Made by a program: the position numbers and the translations under genes. A stretch of DNA of 40,660 nt from the UHGV virus genome UHGV-0383422. One strand, 5' to 3'. A model generated the notes under the pieces. It was not told the DNA's origin and ran no database searches. It was given only the letters and a program-made list of their open reading frames with translations. This DNA is from a virus. Of this stretch, positions 8,048 through 32,285 are shown piece after piece. Numbering within the stretch: position 1 is the stretch's first letter; each line of letters begins with the position of its first letter.

Positions 8048-8408
8048 ATCTTGCTTTCAGGTGATCAAGCGTTAAACGCCACCAACCAAATACGGTTGAT
8101 TTTGATATTTCTCCGCGTTTATCATTACCTTTGCGGTAAATTTACATCGCACTCCTCTTGTGCCATAGTAATCGGGCACTGGCAAAATCCAGTGCCGGGA
8201 TTGGCGTCCCGGGTTACTAAGTGGCGCATACCACGCCAGACGTGGTTTTTTTATGCGTTAAGCACAGCTATATCCGAATTATGGTGGGCTGGGCAGGGGT
8301 CCGAAAGGACGCCGGTACCACTTAGGCCGGTACGCCAACCTTGTCCAGTTCACCACCAGTAATTGGCGTTGCGGTGGTGATTAAAATCACTAAGTGGAGA
8401 TAACCACC

Positions 8409-9119
8409 ATGGCTAATGCTCAAACTTCCATCTTCAAATTTGAATCTGTTAACCCTATCCGTTCCATCATTATCGATGGCCAACCATGGTTTGTAGCCCA
8501 AGACGTTTGTAGTGCGCTGCGTATCCAAAACGTCACCCAAGCACTTGAAAAACTGGATGATGATGAAAGGTCTATGTTCAACATAGGGCATGAACATCGT
8601 GCAATTTTTGACAGCCGAGTAAAAGAGATCAACATCATCTCCGAGTCAGGCCTCTACACACTGATCCTCCGCTGCCGCGACGCAGTGACACCAGGCACTA
8701 TCCCCTACCGCTTTCGTAAATGGGTTACGGGTGAGGTTCTTCCTCAGATCCGCCGCACCGGAAGCTACATTAAAAACTCGCTCCCGCAGGAAGAACGCAT
8801 AAAGATGGTTGCCGACCAGGTGGCCAACGCCACGGCGTCAGCAGTAATGCAGGCGATGAAGATAGAGAACAAAACCTACAGCGCCCCACTGAATCCCGGC
8901 TACCGCAGCCTGATTCATTCGCCGTCTGGTGTTCTCGGCCTGACGGAGAACTCACTGCTGATGAATCTGCTGAACCAGTTACAGGACGACGGGCACGACG
9001 TATCGGGCGCGGCGGCGGAGCTGACCACCATGTTCTGCTACATCGTCGGTGTGAGCAAATGCCTGCGTGATATCCAGACCCACGCGGAATACATCAACGA
9101 CAAGGCAGGGTTCTTCTGA
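8409..9119 (+). CDS. Bro-N domain antirepressor-like protein
   Basis: 236 aa from ATG at 8409 with GGAGA Shine-Dalgarno; N-terminal Bro-N/KilA-N-like region; C-terminal domain homologous to the 7003-7260 product. Confidence 0.7.
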   Translation: MANAQTSIFKFESVNPIRSIIIDGQPWFVAQDVCSALRIQNVTQALEKLDDDERSMFNIGHEHRAIFDSRVKEINIISESGLYTLILRCRDAVTPGTIPYRFRKWVTGEVLPQIRRTGSYIKNSLPQEERIKMVADQVANATASAVMQAMKIENKTYSAPLNPGYRSLIHSPSGVLGLTENSLLMNLLNQLQDDGHDVSGAAAELTTMFCYIVGVSKCLRDIQTHAEYINDKAGFF

Positions 9120-9939: not shown

Positions 9940-10101
9940 ATGAAAAAAGCATTTGCTGCACTGTTCGTTTTGTTGTCTCTGGTAGCTTCAACTCAGGCCT
10001 TTGCCGGTCGTTGTCAGCACGACAGCGACACTGCTGCTGACGGCTCCCGCTGCGGTGGGCGTTCTGCGGACTCCCGTCCGGGCGGCGGTGGCATTCGTTA
10101 A
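9940..10101 (+). CDS. small secreted peptide (signal peptide plus approx 31-aa Cys-containing mature part)
   Basis: MKKAFAALFVLLSLVASTQAFA signal-like N-terminus, then GRCQHDSDTAADGSRCGG...; internal Met chosen because the longer form overlaps the upstream terminator. Confidence 0.45.
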   Translation: MKKAFAALFVLLSLVASTQAFAGRCQHDSDTAADGSRCGGRSADSRPGGGGIR

Positions 10102-10123
10102 AAACAAGGCCGCGAAAGCGGCC
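10096..10123 (-). terminator. hairpin terminator for the minus-strand structural operon
   Basis: Stem GGCCGC/GCGGCC with GAAA loop (10108-10123); T-run on the minus strand. Confidence 0.55.
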
Positions 10124-10124
10124 T

Positions 10125-10136
10125 GTGACATGTCAC
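10125..10136. repeat. 12-bp perfect palindrome GTGACATGTCAC (copy 1 of 3)
   Basis: Exact palindrome between convergent accessory genes and the ejection operon. Confidence 0.6.
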
Positions 10137-26971: not shown

Positions 26972-26983
26972 AAGGTGAAAATC

Positions 26984-27316
26984 ATGAAAGAGAAGACTGC
27001 AGCTGAGCGCTATGCCGCAGCTATCAATGCCGCGATGGCGATTGTAAACCTGCGTGAAGAGATTAAAGATCTCCTTGCAATTATCCATAACAACCTGACA
27101 TGTACAGAGTTGCTTGGCGGTCAGTACAACGGTGAGGCGGTGAAGGAGGCATTTAAAAATGCCGAGGTAGGAATAATTCCAGCAAACTATGTCAAGGCTG
27201 AATGTGTGCTCCTAAAGGCACGAGTGAGTCTGCATGAAGATCCTGGTAATCTCGGTCGAACTGCAATGCGTTACGTGATAGACGAGTCGAATGCCAAACA
27301 CAATCTACCGAAATAA
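26984..27316 (+). CDS. hypothetical protein (110 aa), accessory gene
   Basis: ATG at 26984 with AAGGTGA Shine-Dalgarno; convergent with large terminase; palindrome copy just after the stop. Confidence 0.55.
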   Translation: MKEKTAAERYAAAINAAMAIVNLREEIKDLLAIIHNNLTCTELLGGQYNGEAVKEAFKNAEVGIIPANYVKAECVLLKARVSLHEDPGNLGRTAMRYVIDESNAKHNLPK

Positions 27317-27320
27317 CACC

Positions 27321-27332
27321 GTGACATGTCAC
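27321..27332. repeat. 12-bp perfect palindrome GTGACATGTCAC (copy 2 of 3)
   Basis: Exact palindrome four nt after the stop of 26984-27316. Confidence 0.6.
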
Positions 27333-27406
27333 AAACAGACAGCCTATGAGCTGGCTTTGTTTTATCCTCACCAGAGGATATCAACGACATTATCCCCACC
27401 AGCGGA

Positions 27407-28882: not shown

Positions 28883-29553
28883 TGATTACCATCCTGACGT
28901 TCTTTGAGTCGCTTCCTGGCTGCTGCTATGCGATCAGCAATTGTCACATTCACATTAACATCCAGACGTTCTTTGAACGCGTTGACATCAACATGCTTAC
29001 CAATCAGCTCAAGGTTCTTCACCTTGTCAGGCCATTTAATTTTTTTGAGGATTGTCTCTATCGAATCCTCGTTCATGTTCATGATGGTCGATGACAGATC
29101 AAAGCCACTAAGCGTAGTGCGCCAGATTTTCGGCCACTCACGGATTGGTTTAAGGCTCCCATCGTCGTTGAGGATGTCGATCACGTCCATCTGGTCGATC
29201 TCCACCAGGCGCATGAGAACGTAATCAGCACTGACGCGCATTCGTTTGTTGCGCTCCTCCATCAACTCGGCAATCCGTTTTTGAATGCGTTCATCGCGCA
29301 TCATGACACTGGCTTTAACTGCCGCTGTATTTGGGGAGAATCCTGCGTTAATCGCTGCCTGAGTCTGGTTTTCAGGCGTTTTGATGTATGACTGGCAATA
29401 AGCCTCCTGCATTGCTGTTAGTGGCTTAAATTGCGTTGATTTGCGTTTATAGGTTTTAGGTTCAGCAGGCATCATAACCACCGTGGTAATAGTTACCGTT
29501 GTGGTAATAGTACCATGCAAAATAAAGCCGCCATAGTTGGCGGCAGTATTCAA
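28879..29553 (-). CDS. terminase small subunit
   Basis: 224 aa; N-terminal HTH-like region (AMQEAYCQSYIKTPENQTQAAINAGFSPNTAAVKA); likelier start may be the internal MM at 29475, as the listed N-terminus is encoded by a direct-repeat region. Confidence 0.8.
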   Translation of the reverse strand: MNTAANYGGFILHGTITTTVTITTVVMMPAEPKTYKRKSTQFKPLTAMQEAYCQSYIKTPENQTQAAINAGFSPNTAAVKASVMMRDERIQKRIAELMEERNKRMRVSADYVLMRLVEIDQMDVIDILNDDGSLKPIREWPKIWRTTLSGFDLSSTIMNMNEDSIETILKKIKWPDKVKNLELIGKHVDVNAFKERLDVNVNVTIADRIAAARKRLKERQDGNQ

Positions 29554-29585: not shown

Positions 29586-29597
29586 GTGACATGTCAC
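29586..29597. repeat. 12-bp perfect palindrome GTGACATGTCAC (copy 3 of 3)
   Basis: Exact palindrome between the upstream gene stop and the small-terminase start region. Confidence 0.6.
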
Positions 29598-29941
29598 ACT
29601 ATTAATTTCGTTTCATGCCAGCCTTTAGTCACCCAGCATTGCGAGTCACCATTACACGGGCATGAATTAACTGGAACTCTCTCGCCGCACTTACCGCAAC
29701 ATTTTCTGCTGATCGATTTTATACGCCCGCGCACGCGTGCATCATCCTGGCGGATCAGTAACGCGATGTACTCGGCCATTTCATAGGGATCGCGACCAGG
29801 GCGCCGGGCGGCGCAGTTCCGCGCCAGCATTTCCTGCTCCTGCTTATCCAGCACCAGTTCAATTTTGCGCTCACCGGCGGCGGACTGCCGAGCGCGCTGC
29901 GCGGCTTTGCGTTCTGCGGGGGATTTAGCCACGAATCGCAC
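29594..29941 (-). CDS. hypothetical protein with Cys-rich C-terminus (start uncertain)
   Basis: Listed ORF starts at GTG; internal ATG (MLARN...) has AGGAG Shine-Dalgarno; C-terminus CCGKCGERVPVNSCPCNGDSQCW; GC-rich segment. Confidence 0.4.
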   Translation of the reverse strand: MRFVAKSPAERKAAQRARQSAAGERKIELVLDKQEQEMLARNCAARRPGRDPYEMAEYIALLIRQDDARVRGRIKSISRKCCGKCGERVPVNSCPCNGDSQCWVTKGWHETKLIV

Positions 29942-30047
29942 TCCACGCCAGATTGATTAATGACTCCCAGGTAATATAAACCCGGATACCAGCAGCCAGG
30001 CCGAAACCAATCACCATGGCATAAAGCAGAGCGTTGCACTTGTTCAT
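29925..30047 (-). CDS. small membrane peptide (40 aa)
   Basis: MNKCNALLYAMVIGFGLAAGIRVYITWESLINLAWSAIRG; AGGAGGTGA Shine-Dalgarno; ATG overlaps upstream stop. Confidence 0.45.
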   Translation of the reverse strand: MNKCNALLYAMVIGFGLAAGIRVYITWESLINLAWSAIRG

Positions 30048-30829
30048 CACTTCACCTCCTGCGGCGGTTCTGGTAGCGGCATCCAGAACAAGGCGTTCCC
30101 TAACCACGATAAAGTGCCGTCGCTCAACTCCACGTATTCCCCTTGTACCTGTCCTGCCATATACTCGCCGTGCTTTGAATAAATTAAAATCCAATCATCT
30201 TGAGGGGGCATTCGCTCACTACAGCTTATCCAACCATCCGGAGTCACCGGAAGCGAGAACGGCAGCACATCTCTGTGAACAAGTTTTTGCTGTGACAGGT
30301 TATCCAGAACTTTCTGTACTGCTGCATCACCGAATACACCAAGCGCATCTGCCATAACTCCTACAACCTGATAAGCCTCAGCGCATACCGTGGATAAACC
30401 ATCCGGAATTACCGGAGAGTTGCCGGGTTCTTTAATGTGCAAGCGAGGCTCACCATCTTTTGGCTCAGGCCACTGGCGCTCCATGTTGATCTTCAATTTA
30501 TCTTCCATAGCAACGGTAATTTCAGCATCGCTGATGCCAGCACGGCGCTGTGCATCCCACAACAGAAACTGCATATCAGCCCACTCGCTAAGATCGTCTG
30601 GTTCGGCTGCGGCTTCCAGTGCCTCTTTTGAGAGGTGTTTCAGTGGACCAATGGGGCCAACGCAGCCAAATGTGGAGTCAGACCATTTGGCATGCTCGTG
30701 GCGAATCTGTTCGCGTTCCAGTGATGCCAGTGCAATTCGTGCTAGTTCCATTTGTTCGCCACGAGTAAGCCCGTTTTCAAGCGGATTTTTAATGAACAAT
30801 TCAATACGTTCTTTGGTAATAGTGGTCAT
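30047..30829 (-). CDS. hypothetical protein (nin-region type)
   Basis: 260 aa; early-operon position; no motif recognised with confidence. Confidence 0.5.
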   Translation of the reverse strand: MTTITKERIELFIKNPLENGLTRGEQMELARIALASLEREQIRHEHAKWSDSTFGCVGPIGPLKHLSKEALEAAAEPDDLSEWADMQFLLWDAQRRAGISDAEITVAMEDKLKINMERQWPEPKDGEPRLHIKEPGNSPVIPDGLSTVCAEAYQVVGVMADALGVFGDAAVQKVLDNLSQQKLVHRDVLPFSLPVTPDGWISCSERMPPQDDWILIYSKHGEYMAGQVQGEYVELSDGTLSWLGNALFWMPLPEPPQEVK

Positions 30830-31104: not shown

Positions 31105-31596
31105 TCACTCTCCTTTGATGCGAATGCCAGTGGTACTCATTCTCCTGATTTCCCAGAGCACACGAGGAACACCACCGTTTCCGACCGGATCGCGTTTACT
31201 CCGCAGGGCGACGCTTGATTCCGCCCAGCTTTTTCTTGGAGGAAGCTCTTTCACACGAACAAAACCAGCTGCGCGGAGAGATGCTCCTGATTCATCTGCC
31301 TGGGTGTACGTAATACAACGTTGATAACCCATAGCCTTTGCTGCCCGCCAGACAGCACCATAAAGCGCGCTGTTAGCGTTGCGTTCTCCTGTGGTACATG
31401 TGCGATTTACTTCAAGCGTTAATCCATCGTCCAAATGTCGTGCAACAGGTCTACCGGCTGTCGCCACACCTATCAATTCTCCGGCATCATTTCTCAGACC
31501 AATGCTGAATTTATGCCCCACCGGGGGTTTATTGTGTCGGTGATGTCTGGATATAAACGCCTTCGCAACACGAAGAGTAACCGGTGAAATTTGCAT
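31105..31596 (-). CDS. hypothetical protein with His/Arg-rich N-terminus; ends GIRIKGE
   Basis: Start set at ATG 31596 with GGAGAG Shine-Dalgarno (listed ORF begins at GTG); C-terminal heptapeptide shared with the upstream gene. Confidence 0.5.
   Translation of the reverse strand: MQISPVTLRVAKAFISRHHRHNKPPVGHKFSIGLRNDAGELIGVATAGRPVARHLDDGLTLEVNRTCTTGERNANSALYGAVWRAAKAMGYQRCITYTQADESGASLRAAGFVRVKELPPRKSWAESSVALRSKRDPVGNGGVPRVLWEIRRMSTTGIRIKGE
31106..31130. repeat. 25-bp direct repeat (junction copy 1) CACTCTCCTTTGATGCGAATGCCAG
   Basis: Identical 25-mer at 31600-31624; encodes C-terminal GIRIKGE plus stop plus Shine-Dalgarno of next gene. Confidence 0.7.
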
Positions 31597-31598
31597 TC

Positions 31599-32285
31599 TC
31601 ACTCTCCTTTGATGCGAATGCCAGCGGCACGGGAATCATTCCATCGCTTTACTTCTTCACGAATTACGTCAATGCATTCTTTCGAATCCATTAGGTAATC
31701 TTCATCAAAAAGCCTTTCCTGTTCGTTTTCTATCGCAACAATGATTGCTTCAACTAACTTTTGTGCCTGAGAACCACTTTCTAACTCTGCAATGCGCTTC
31801 TCTGCGGCTTCCAGCTTCTCGCGCATATCGTCAACGTACTCGACCAGAGATCCGCCAGCAGGAATTTCGCACTCCTCGACCAGTTGGAAGTAGATATCAG
31901 CTGCGGCCCGTGTGTTGCTATGCCTAGCGTCGCCCATCTCACCTTCACGAAGAGCATCGCGTTCGGCGGTAAGATTGGCTATTTTGCTGTCTTTGCCTTC
32001 CAGCTCAACGCGAAGCCTCCCAACCGTAAGCGCAATATCCTCGTTCTCCTGGTCGCGGCGTTTGATGTATTGCAGGTTTCTTTCCCGTTCATCCAGCAGC
32101 GTCAGCACGGTTTCTGGTCCGGTCAGAAATTTGAAGGCGTTGAGCGCATCAATATCCACACCATAATCTTTAAGTTCCTGTTCACTTAACAAATCATCAT
32201 CAGCTGGCAACATTAACAGGCGTTCCATTGCTGGAATTGCACGTTCTGCCGCCTCACGCAGTGCCTGATAGTTAATTTTGGTCAT
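31599..32285 (-). CDS. Ea22-like early protein
   Basis: 228 aa, acidic coiled-coil-like; C-terminal GIRIKGE; prophage early-region position. Confidence 0.55.
   Translation of the reverse strand: MTKINYQALREAAERAIPAMERLLMLPADDDLLSEQELKDYGVDIDALNAFKFLTGPETVLTLLDERERNLQYIKRRDQENEDIALTVGRLRVELEGKDSKIANLTAERDALREGEMGDARHSNTRAAADIYFQLVEECEIPAGGSLVEYVDDMREKLEAAEKRIAELESGSQAQKLVEAIIVAIENEQERLFDEDYLMDSKECIDVIREEVKRWNDSRAAGIRIKGE
31600..31624. repeat. 25-bp direct repeat (junction copy 2)
   Basis: Identical to 31106-31130. Confidence 0.7.

What the first reader, a model, noticed from the sequence alone, without database searches (positions are those of the whole stretch)
29594..29941. GC-rich gene with Cys-rich C-terminus immediately upstream of the late operon
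The ORF upstream of small terminase is unusually GC-rich in its 5' half, has an ambiguous start (GTG versus internal ATG with AGGAG), and ends in a Cys cluster (CCGKCGERVPVNSCPCNGDSQCW) suggestive of metal binding. Its stop codon overlaps palindrome copy 3. By position it is a candidate late-gene regulator.
Basis: inference. Interest (0 to 1): 0.3.

Follow-up and report, generated by a model that had tools for sequence, protein, structure and literature searches.

The report
Phage DNA-binding zinc protein with its site
The gene is real and encodes a small, uncharacterised DNA-binding zinc protein whose probable 12-base binding site sits on its own stop codon in many unrelated temperate phages, so it looks like a portable regulator-plus-site unit, not the phage's dedicated late-gene switch.

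Summary
The ORF is real. It lies on the minus strand in an epsilon15/phiV10-like (Uetakevirus) prophage and equals epsilon15 gp49 / phiV10 p55 / N15 gp46 (PHROG 536). The true start is the second GTG (29932, 112 aa). The 5' half is GC-rich (65% vs 49%). Four Cys (C79, C82, C91, C99) are conserved across the family.

Residues 8-70 match the ribbon-helix-helix protein YbfE (hhalign 94%). Residues 46-105 weakly resemble the TraR/DksA zinc finger (81%), but the second CxxC is missing and Pfam gives no hit.

The main new result concerns the dyad GTGAC-N2-GTCAC on the stop codon. It is kept in about 78 of 80 close relatives whatever lies downstream. It recurs in or next to the gene in 10 of 14 distant lineages (N15-like, P2-like, Mu-like, lambdoid, Vibrio), where about 0.0005 per lineage is expected. 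Each full genome examined has about three dyads. In this window all three lie beside intrinsic terminators at operon ends. The arms match E. coli matS with one base less spacing, but there is no homology to MatP.

Homologues coexist with Q, Mor and Ogr, and the late operons here carry repressor operators. A dedicated late activator is therefore unlikely. A site-specific regulator acting at operon boundaries is the best reading, and it is untested.

The parts
29594..29932 (-). Coding sequence, 112 aa plus TGA (epsilon15 gp49 / phiV10 p55 / N15 gp46 family, PHROG 536). The start is the second GTG.
29933..29941 (-). In-frame upstream GTG extension of the mechanical ORF (3 codons). Probably not translated.
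   Evidence: Homologues are 112 aa and start at the position of 29932. GGAG lies 8 nt before 29932.
29723..29911 (-). Residues 8-70: a basic helix (RKAAQRARQ), then strand-helix-helix. This is a ribbon-helix-helix DNA-binding domain of the YbfE type.
   Evidence: hhalign with YbfE: 93.9%, E 1.6e-7. YbfE was verified as RHH_1. AF2 helices 5-18, 30-42 and 52-74. Weak RHH Pfam hits in some family members.
29624..29707 (-). Residues 76-103: a C4 zinc knuckle, C79-x2-C82-x8-C91-x7-C99, with motif CGxx[LIV]P...GDxxCW.
   Evidence: Conservation. Weak similarity to TraR/YbiI. pLDDT about 90.
29828..29841 (-). Internal AGGAG-N6-ATG (Met35). A possible but unproven internal start.
   Evidence: These bases encode the conserved QEQEM.
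29586..29597 (.). Dyad 1, GTGACATGTCAC, containing the TGA stop of the gene. Inferred cognate binding site.
29517..29544 (-). Intrinsic terminator (GCCGCCA-ACTA-TGGCGGC plus U run), 41 nt after dyad 1. It ends the early-right operon.
   Evidence: Conserved in relatives. Annotated in epsilon15 and phiV10.
29492..29508 (.). Phage repressor operator ATTACC-N5-GGTAAC, between the terminator and the terS start (ATG at 29472).
   Evidence: Matches the epsilon15 'repressor' site at 12-27.
27321..27332 (.). Dyad 2, 75 nt after the large-terminase stop. It overlaps the U-tail of a weak hairpin (27340-27353) and lies 5 nt after the stop of the opposite-strand ORF 26975-27316.
   Evidence: Same place in epsilon15 and in most relatives.
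10125..10136 (.). Dyad 3, at the end of the structural operon. It lies 8 nt after a 46-aa membrane ORF and directly abuts the terminator at 10100-10124.
   Evidence: In epsilon15 the equivalent dyad overlaps the gp18 stop.

Best explanation
The gene encodes a small protein made of a basic helix, a ribbon-helix-helix domain and a C-terminal four-cysteine zinc knuckle. It most likely binds double-stranded DNA as a dimer at the dyad GTGAC-N2-GTCAC.

Gene and site travel together as a cassette, and the ancestral position of the dyad is on the gene's own TGA stop. Because the site sits at the 3' end of the gene, the protein is released next to its target, and it acts on what lies downstream, not on its own promoter.

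In this phage the three dyads sit beside intrinsic terminators: at the end of the early-right operon (before terS), after terL, and at the end of the structural operon. The bound protein is therefore inferred to modulate passage of RNA polymerase across operon boundaries. It could do so as a roadblock or insulator, or by altering termination. The sign of the effect is unknown.

Shown: the gene is coding; its domain relationships; the statistical coupling of gene and dyad; the placement of dyads next to terminators.

Inferred: that this protein binds the dyad; zinc binding; dimerisation; any effect on transcription.
For: - Coding status and family.
- RHH domain: hhalign 93.9% (E 1.6e-7) to YbfE, itself verified as NCBIfam 'LexA regulated protein' and Pfam RHH_1. 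The AF2 model has pLDDT 89 with matching secondary structure.
- Zinc site: four conserved Cys.
- Dyad in this window: three exact copies against 0 expected, and only the N=2 spacing occurs.
- Dyad in close relatives: invariant at the stop codon in about 78 of 80, across four unrelated kinds of downstream sequence.
- Dyad in distant lineages: an exact GTGAC-N2-GTCAC within gene +/-60 nt in 10 of 14, against 4.7e-4 expected per lineage. In 5 of these, 4 of them independent phage groups, it sits exactly on the TGA stop. Six further dyads occur in 125 kb of flanks, against 0.12 expected.
- Regulon pattern: within one genome the dyads are identical or nearly so, namely the window and epsilon15 with AT centres, phiKO2 with TG/CA, K308 with GC/AC.
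- Dyads beside terminators in the window and in epsilon15.
- In other lineages dyads abut ribosome-binding sites or start codons, including those of the gene itself (L097, Aeromonas). This fits an operator or roadblock.
Against: - There is no experimental evidence for binding, and no literature on the family or the 12-mer.
- Pfam and NCBIfam give no significant hit for this protein. Foldseek gives no significant PDB match; the best is TTHA0139 at E 1.0.
- Four of 14 lineages lack an exact nearby dyad (one of them has a one-mismatch copy just upstream of its start), and one close relative (L046) lacks both downstream dyads.
- SPN1S has a different N-terminus without the conserved basic helix, yet it keeps the dyad.
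- The order of dyad and terminator differs between the three sites.
- Terminators do not accompany the dyad in N15-like, P2-like or Mu-like phages. The terminator link may therefore be specific to this phage group.
Confidence: 0.45

Rival explanations
1. It is the dedicated late-gene switch. The protein would be a Q-like or RinA-like activator or antiterminator. It would load at the dyad just downstream of its own gene and let RNA polymerase pass the terminator into terS-terL and the rest of the late genes.
For: - It is the last gene of the early-right operon. The order gene, site, terminator, late genes resembles lambda Q-qut-tR'.
- No recognisable Q, Mor or Ogr-type regulator was found among the early-right genes of this phage.
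- A weak promoter-like match, GTGACA-18-CATGAT, overlaps the dyad.
- The protein is a Zn-binding DNA binder.
Against: - Homologues coexist with Q, Mor or Ogr in other phages, far from late promoters.
- The late operons here have their own repressor operators.
- The sequence between dyad and terminator is not conserved (41 or 22 nt), and the putative -10 differs between classes.
- Relatives have extra genes inserted between the dyad and terS.
- There is no homology to Q, Ogr or Mor families.
Confidence: 0.15
2. It is a TraR/DksA-like modulator of host RNA polymerase, like lambda Orf73 in the nin region. The long helix plus zinc finger would bind the secondary channel and reprogramme host transcription. 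The dyad would then be incidental or serve another factor.
For: - The family profile hits TraR and YbiI in the PDB at E about 0.05.
- hhalign to TraR gives 65%, rising to 81% (E 1.2e-5) against a TraR family alignment, over almost the whole of TraR.
- The C-x2-C-G-x2-[IL]-P ... F-x-G-x3-C spacing is identical.
- The gene sits in a nin-like position at the end of the early operon.
- The conserved acidic PYxxxEY motif aligns with the TraR N-terminal tip.
Against: - Pfam zf-dskA_traR does not match any of 57 members, nor 10 isolated C-terminal domains.
- The second CxxC pair is absent.
- Foldseek does not retrieve TraR or DksA.
- The aligned 'tip' lies inside a loop between two helices, not at a free end.
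- This reading does not explain the very strong coupling of gene and dyad.
Confidence: 0.1
3. It is an architectural or cis-acting DNA-handling protein and not a transcription factor. It would be a phage 'mini-MatP' that bridges or marks the roughly three dyads per genome for condensation, exclusion of host SMC complexes, partition, replication or packaging.
For: - The dyad arms are identical to E. coli matS, GTGAC[AG]N[TC]GTCAC, the site of the RHH protein MatP (for the consensus).
- There are about three dyads per genome in four genomes.
- In this window the dyads flank terS-terL, and one lies 31 nt before terS in Vibrio phage K308.
- In phiKO2 one dyad lies inside the replicase gene.
- Small DUF1441 (Nu1-like) proteins are neighbours in three lineages.
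- All named hosts belong to enterobacteria, Vibrio or Aeromonas.
Against: - There is no detectable homology to MatP (hhalign 0.5%).
- The spacing is 12 bp, not 13, and no 13-bp matS occurs in the window.
- No coiled-coil tetramerisation region is present.
- Gene and dyad are far from cos, pac or terminase in P2-like, Mu-like and N15-like phages.
- Several dyads per genome do not fit a unique packaging site.
Confidence: 0.15
4. It is an RNA-binding translational regulator. The protein would bind the transcribed dyad as a small hairpin next to ribosome-binding sites, as Mu Com does for mom, and so control translation of the downstream gene.
For: - In several lineages the dyad abuts a Shine-Dalgarno sequence or start codon: phiKO2/Kpn74 gp46, K308 terS and gene 0032, a class of close relatives, and the gene itself in L097 and the Aeromonas phage.
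- The protein has a zinc finger and an arginine-rich N-terminus.
Against: - The arm sequence is conserved with no covariation, which is the mark of a dimer reading duplex DNA.
- A 5-bp stem with a 2-nt loop cannot form, and the predicted hairpin is only 4-5 bp.
- RHH domains bind duplex DNA.
- In this window none of the three dyads abuts a start codon.
Confidence: 0.07

Closest known systems
E. coli YbfE (LexA-regulated protein; Pfam RHH_1 / CopG-type ribbon-helix-helix)
   Same: A basic helix followed by strand-helix-helix. hhalign 93.9% over residues 8-70, and the strand KIELVL aligns with RVELKL.
   Different: YbfE has no zinc-finger extension and no known site. This protein does not reach the Pfam RHH thresholds by itself.
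TraR / DksA C4 zinc-finger family (F-plasmid TraR, lambda Orf73, YbiI)
   Same: A long helix followed by CxxCGxx[IL]P...FxG...C with identical spacing. hhalign 81%. Encoded at the distal end of a phage early operon, as I recall for lambda orf73 (my own knowledge, not checked here).
   Different: The second CxxC is replaced by a single Cys, and another Cys at +8 probably serves as the fourth ligand. There is no Pfam hit. An N-terminal RHH is present. The gene is tightly linked to a DNA dyad, which TraR does not need.
MatP / matS of enterobacteria
   Same: An RHH protein preceded by a basic helix, recognising a dyad with the arms GTGAC/GTCAC. A few sites are spread over a replicon.
   Different: There is no sequence homology. 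The centre is 2 nt, not 3. There is a zinc knuckle where MatP has a four-helix bundle and coiled coil. Prophages avoid true matS (PMC3603311).
Lambda Q-qut-tR' and other late switches next to terS (RinA of staphylococcal phages, Ogr/Delta of P2/P4)
   Same: A regulator gene directly upstream of the late or packaging operon, with a site just downstream of the gene and then a terminator. Q and Ogr also bind zinc.
   Different: There is no homology. The family coexists with Q, Ogr and Mor elsewhere. No conserved promoter lies at the dyad. The late operons here have repressor operators.
Phage P22 Arc/Mnt and plasmid CopG/omega RHH repressors
   Same: Small RHH dimers that read short dyads and control neighbouring transcription units.
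   Different: Those bind operators at promoters upstream of their own genes. Here the site is at the 3' end of the gene, inside operons, and the protein carries a zinc module.

Membership tests
Ribbon-helix-helix (RHH_1/CopG-like) DNA-binding proteins | Sequence profile match to an RHH family | tested here: inconclusive
   hhalign of the family profile against YbfE (verified RHH_1): 93.9%, E 1.6e-7. Pfam RHH models give no hit for this protein, and only weak hits (E 0.013-0.07) in a few relatives. CopG alone scores 2%.
Ribbon-helix-helix (RHH_1/CopG-like) DNA-binding proteins | N-terminal strand followed by two helices; the strands of two subunits pair into a ribbon | tested here: inconclusive
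   AF2 monomer: extended 19-29, helices 30-42 and 52-74, pLDDT about 90. The best PDB fold match is not significant (E 1.0, probability 0.87). A dimer could not be modelled.
Ribbon-helix-helix (RHH_1/CopG-like) DNA-binding proteins | Binds a short dyad or repeated site on duplex DNA | not testable with these tools
   Only indirect: the conserved GTGAC-N2-GTCAC is coupled to the gene in 10 of 14 lineages.
DksA/TraR C4-type zinc finger (Pfam PF01258) | CxxC-x17-CxxC zinc site | tested here: not met
   The first CxxC and the Cys at +18 are present, but the last Cys is absent. A different Cys (+8) is conserved instead.
DksA/TraR C4-type zinc finger (Pfam PF01258) | Match to the family model | tested here: not met
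   There is no PF01258 hit among 57 members or 10 isolated C-terminal domains. Only profile-level similarity exists: E about 0.05 against PDB sequences, hhalign 65-81%.
DksA/TraR C4-type zinc finger (Pfam PF01258) | Binds the RNA polymerase secondary channel through an acidic helix tip | not testable with these tools
   The conserved D/E-P-Y-x3-E-Y aligns with the TraR tip but lies in an inter-helix loop.
Lambdoid Q antiterminators | Homology to a Q family (Pfam Phage_antitermQ, Phage_antiter_Q, or the lambda Q family) | tested here: not met
   No Pfam hit. Homologues coexist with Q genes.
Lambdoid Q antiterminators | Binding element within a late promoter, followed by a pause site and a terminator | tested here: inconclusive
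   A terminator is present 41 nt downstream. Only a weak promoter-like match overlaps the dyad, and it is not conserved between downstream classes.
Ogr/Delta late activators | Ogr_Delta zinc-finger domain | tested here: not met
   No hit. The Yersinia P2-like phage has both a true Ogr_Delta protein (76 bits) and a homologue of this gene.
MatP (macrodomain Ter protein) | Homology to MatP | tested here: not met
   hhalign probability 0.5% against the verified MatP sequence. No MatP hit in the PDB profile search.
MatP (macrodomain Ter protein) | 13-bp site GTGAC[AG]N[TC]GTCAC | tested here: not met
   All dyads found have a 2-nt centre. No 13-bp matS occurs in the window or in phiKO2.
PHROG 536 (epsilon15 gp49 / N15 gp46 family) | Full-length profile match | tested here: met
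   E 6e-54, residues 5-114 of the 115-aa ORF against profile positions 3-114 of 115. 82-87% identity to epsilon15 gp49 and phiV10 p55.

The most novel reading that the evidence does not exclude
The protein is a DNA-tethered secondary-channel factor. An RHH domain would park a TraR-like helix-plus-zinc-finger module on matS-like 12-bp dyads at operon ends. The module would be handed to RNA polymerase as it passes, changing pausing or termination at the adjacent terminators. This would be a portable, self-contained 'gene plus site' boundary element shared by Uetakevirus, P2-like, Mu-like, N15-like and lambdoid phages. It might also cross-talk with the host MatP/matS system.
Probability: 0.1. Interest if true: 0.8.

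Novelty: new variant of a known kind. Interest (0 to 1): 0.5.

Why it matters
The family is common in prophages of E. coli, Salmonella, Klebsiella, Yersinia and Vibrio, and it is annotated only as 'hypothetical' or, without evidence, as 'transcriptional regulator'.

The gene carries its own conserved 12-bp site on its stop codon across very different phage types. That gives a concrete hypothesis that a simple gel shift can test: protein X binds sequence Y. It also gives a handle on how epsilon15-like phages, which have no known Q-type late switch, delimit their early and late transcription units.

If the resemblance to matS or to TraR is functional, it would link phage gene control to host chromosome organisation or to regulation through the RNA polymerase secondary channel.

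Tried and rejected
- Pfam and NCBIfam scans of the protein: no hit.
- PDB sequence search with the single protein: nothing.
- Foldseek of two AF2 models against the PDB: no significant match. Against viral structures, only a 46-aa fragment of the same family.
- MatP homology: rejected.
- hhalign against CopB/RepA2 as recalled from memory, and against CopG: no support.
- Pfam zf-dskA_traR on isolated C-terminal domains: no hit.
- The search for related loci with the distant alignments A3 and A5 failed, because no stretch was conserved enough. Lineages were therefore sampled one at a time.
- Literature searches for epsilon15/phiV10 late regulation, SPC32H, the 12-mer, N15 gp46 and RHH-zinc late regulators: nothing on this family.
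- CRP, LacI-type, LexA and phage repressor sites were considered for the dyad (the host sites from memory only) and set aside. The spacing and sequence differ, and the phage repressor operator is the separate motif TTACC-N5-GGTAA.
- The apparent direct repeat ACTATTACC before terS turned out to be that repressor operator.
- A cos or pac role for the dyad was rejected, because there are several copies per genome and they lie far from the terminase genes in other phage types.

Full report
**Observation**

The window is an epsilon15/phiV10/TL-2011b-like (Uetakevirus) prophage read in reverse. The ORF 29594-29941 lies on the minus strand. It is followed in the direction of transcription by the small terminase (Pfam Terminase_2) and the large terminase.

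- The 5' half has 64.7% GC, against 49.1% in the 3' half and 48.9% in the window.
- There are two in-frame GTGs and an internal AGGAG-N6-ATG.
- There is a Cys-rich C-terminus.
- The TGA stop lies inside the perfect palindrome GTGACATGTCAC (29586-29597). It has three exact copies in the window, against none in 100 shuffles.

The gene is clearly coding. Differences from 54 distinct homologues fall 561/301/1502 on codon positions 1/2/3.

The start is the second GTG at 29932.
- Homologues are almost all 112 aa.
- They have ATG (41 of 54) or GTG at that exact position.
- GGAG lies 8 nt upstream.
- The 8-nt overlap with the upstream 40-aa membrane ORF is the same as in phiV10.

**Family and domains**

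The protein is epsilon15 gp49 / phiV10 p55, which the epsilon15 record notes as similar to N15 gp46. It matches PHROG 536 end to end (E 6e-54). It has no Pfam, NCBIfam or PDB sequence hit on its own.

The family is small. It has 186 representatives at 50% identity among 1.84 billion proteins. All named members come from enterobacteria, Vibrio and Aeromonas or their phages.

Family-wide conserved positions are R8, R13, Y50, E54, L59, P87 and four cysteines: C79, C82, C91 and C99.

A deep-alignment AF2 model has mean pLDDT 89. It shows a basic helix (5-18), an extended segment (19-29), helices 30-42 and 52-74, and then a knuckle-like zinc region.

Profile comparison places residues 8-70 on E. 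coli YbfE with 93.9% probability. I checked that the YbfE sequence I used is NCBIfam 'LexA regulated protein' (169 bits) and carries Pfam RHH_1. The N-terminal two-thirds is therefore a ribbon-helix-helix DNA-binding domain preceded by a basic helix.

Residues 46-105 resemble TraR/YbiI.
- The profile against PDB sequences gives E about 0.05.
- hhalign gives 65% against TraR alone and 81% against a TraR alignment.
- The C-x2-C-G-x2-[IL]-P...F-x-G-x3-C spacing is identical.

Against membership, the second CxxC is missing, Pfam zf-dskA_traR never hits, and Foldseek does not retrieve TraR or DksA. I treat this as a possible distant relationship, not membership.

**The dyad is coupled to the gene**

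In 80 close relatives from viral contigs the 12-mer sits on the stop codon in about 78. The exceptions are a deletion variant, a record cut at the stop, and one relative (L046) with a TAG stop and no dyads.

The sequence after ...GTGACATGTCACGA falls into at least four unrelated classes:
- terminator plus terS at two different spacings;
- another ORF starting 11 nt later;
- two different LexA-box promoters, at least one of which drives a UmuD'-like gene.

The dyad therefore belongs with the gene, not with terS.

I then sampled distant homologues (28-45% identity) in other phage types. An exact GTGAC-N2-GTCAC lies on the TGA stop in these:
- phiKO2 gp45 and Kpn74 (N15-like);
- a Yersinia P2-like phage;
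- Vibrio phage 10N.237.

In other lineages its position differs:
- 15 nt after the stop in L084;
- 4 nt before the start in L097;
- inside the gene in Mu-like L003 and in L087/L100;
- 226 nt downstream in Vibrio K308;
- a one-mismatch copy 25 nt before the start in an Aeromonas phage.

Overall, 10 of 14 lineages have an exact dyad within gene +/-60 nt, where 4.7e-4 is expected per lineage. Six more dyads occur in 125 kb of flanks, where 0.12 is expected.

Only the 2-nt spacing occurs. Within a genome the copies are the same or nearly the same 12-mer, and there are about three per genome (window, epsilon15, phiKO2, K308). This is the pattern of a small regulon read by one dimeric protein. The RHH protein encoded at the site is the obvious candidate, but binding itself is inferred.

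**Where the dyads sit here**

- Dyad 1 is followed after 41 nt by a strong intrinsic terminator. Then come a phage repressor operator and terS.
- Dyad 3 (10125) directly abuts a terminator at the end of the structural operon.
- Dyad 2 (27321) overlaps the U-tail of a weak hairpin after terL. It also lies 5 nt after the stop of an opposite-strand ORF.

Epsilon15 has the same three dyads at the same three places, two of them on stop codons.

The repressor operator TTACC-N5-GGTAA occurs 11 times in the window (0.01 expected). Copies lie upstream of terS, the portal operon and the tailspike, and the epsilon15 record annotates such sites. The late operons therefore appear to be directly repressor-controlled.

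**Is it the late regulator?**

By position it could be, and no Q, Mor or Ogr-like gene was found in the early-right operon. The family, however, coexists with known late regulators:
- Q in phiKO2, Kpn74, L087 and L088;
- Mor in Mu-like L003;
- a bona fide Ogr_Delta protein in the Yersinia phage.

In those phages the gene lies at the distal end of early or replication operons, far from late promoters. Taken with the repressor operators and the extra genes inserted between the dyad and terS in relatives, a dedicated late activator is unlikely (about 0.15).

**Most likely mechanism**

The protein is most likely a dimeric RHH-zinc protein that binds its dyad on duplex DNA. In this picture the conserved basic helix would read the invariant arms and the variable strand would lie over the variable centre. 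That assignment is inference.

Placing the site on the stop codon would favour action in cis and would put the control point on whatever lies downstream. In this phage group that means transcription across operon boundaries next to terminators. In other lineages it means the next gene, or the gene itself where the dyad abuts a ribosome-binding site.

Whether the protein blocks or promotes read-through cannot be decided from sequence.

**Comparison with known systems**

The arms of the dyad equal those of matS, GTGAC[AG]N[TC]GTCAC (PMC3603311). matS is the site of MatP, another RHH protein with a preceding basic helix. There is no homology to MatP and the spacing is one base shorter. That paper also reports that prophages avoid true matS. 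The resemblance is a lead, not a classification.

**Verdict**

The protein is an uncharacterised variant of RHH regulators with a zinc module. The conserved gene-plus-site cassette appears not to have been described.

Interest is moderate. The hypothesis is concrete and cheap to test, and it bears on how epsilon15-like phages separate early from late transcription.

Noticed in passing
window 6912, 8032, 8125, 9192, 26370, 29493, 33598, 33660, 35941, 36653, 36715: There are eleven copies of the inverted repeat TTACC-N5-GGTAA (0.01 expected). They match the sites annotated as repressor-binding in epsilon15. They lie in the immunity region and also upstream of terS, the portal operon, the tailspike and the antirepressor region. 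This suggests the late operons are directly repressor-controlled.
   Followed up: partly
L041, L044, L055, L056, L062 (about 5-90 nt after the gene's stop): In some close relatives, a promoter with a perfect LexA box (TACTGT-N8-ACAGTA) is inserted right after the dyad. In four of the five it drives a UmuD'-like ORF (MGFPSPA.DY). These are SOS-controlled inserted genes between gp49 and terS.
   Followed up: no
window 31105-31602 (-): A 165-aa ORF matches PHROG 1384, 'Mom-like DNA modification protein' (E 1.5e-42), in the nin-like region.
   Followed up: no
window 8394-9119 (+): A Bro-N domain protein (Pfam 1e-19), the likely antirepressor, is encoded opposite to the late genes. Its transcription unit ends near dyad 3.
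   Followed up: no
window 30047-30829 (-): A 260-aa protein fuses a dATP/dGTP pyrophosphohydrolase domain (PF04447, 9e-42) to DUF551.
   Followed up: no
window 29925-30047 (-): A 40-aa hydrophobic ORF (PHROG 5525, E 7e-29) has a stop that overlaps the start of the gene by 8 nt. In relatives this upstream neighbour is replaced by other genes (DUF2591, ASCH).
   Followed up: partly
L101 (Salmonella phage SPN1S) 1429-1737: The SPN1S and SPC32N versions of the gene have a different N-terminus (MATTTTRRQN...) in place of the conserved basic helix. They keep the rest of the protein and the dyad on the stop codon. There is a mosaic joint inside the gene.
   Followed up: partly
L084 4597-4782, L097 133-309, L099 148-327: A 58-61-aa DUF1441 protein (Pfam PF07278; I take it to be a Nu1-like DNA-binding domain, which was not tested) sits directly or closely upstream of distant homologues in three lineages. 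In L097 the dyad overlaps its stop codon.
   Followed up: no
L105 (phiKO2) 31182 and 36062: phiKO2 has two further identical dyads (GTGACTGGTCAC and its complement). One lies inside the replicase gene gp35. The other lies between gp31 and the terminator that precedes the icd-antA-antB antirepressor operon.
   Followed up: no
L087 224-235: In a lambdoid contig that carries a 31%-identical homologue, an exact GTGACATGTCAC lies 24 nt upstream of the Q antiterminator start and overlaps the stop of the preceding gene.
   Followed up: no
L031 3903-4300: One relative has a deletion that removes the last five codons, the dyad and the spacer. This fuses the gene to the terminator region, and it is probably a decaying prophage.
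   Followed up: no
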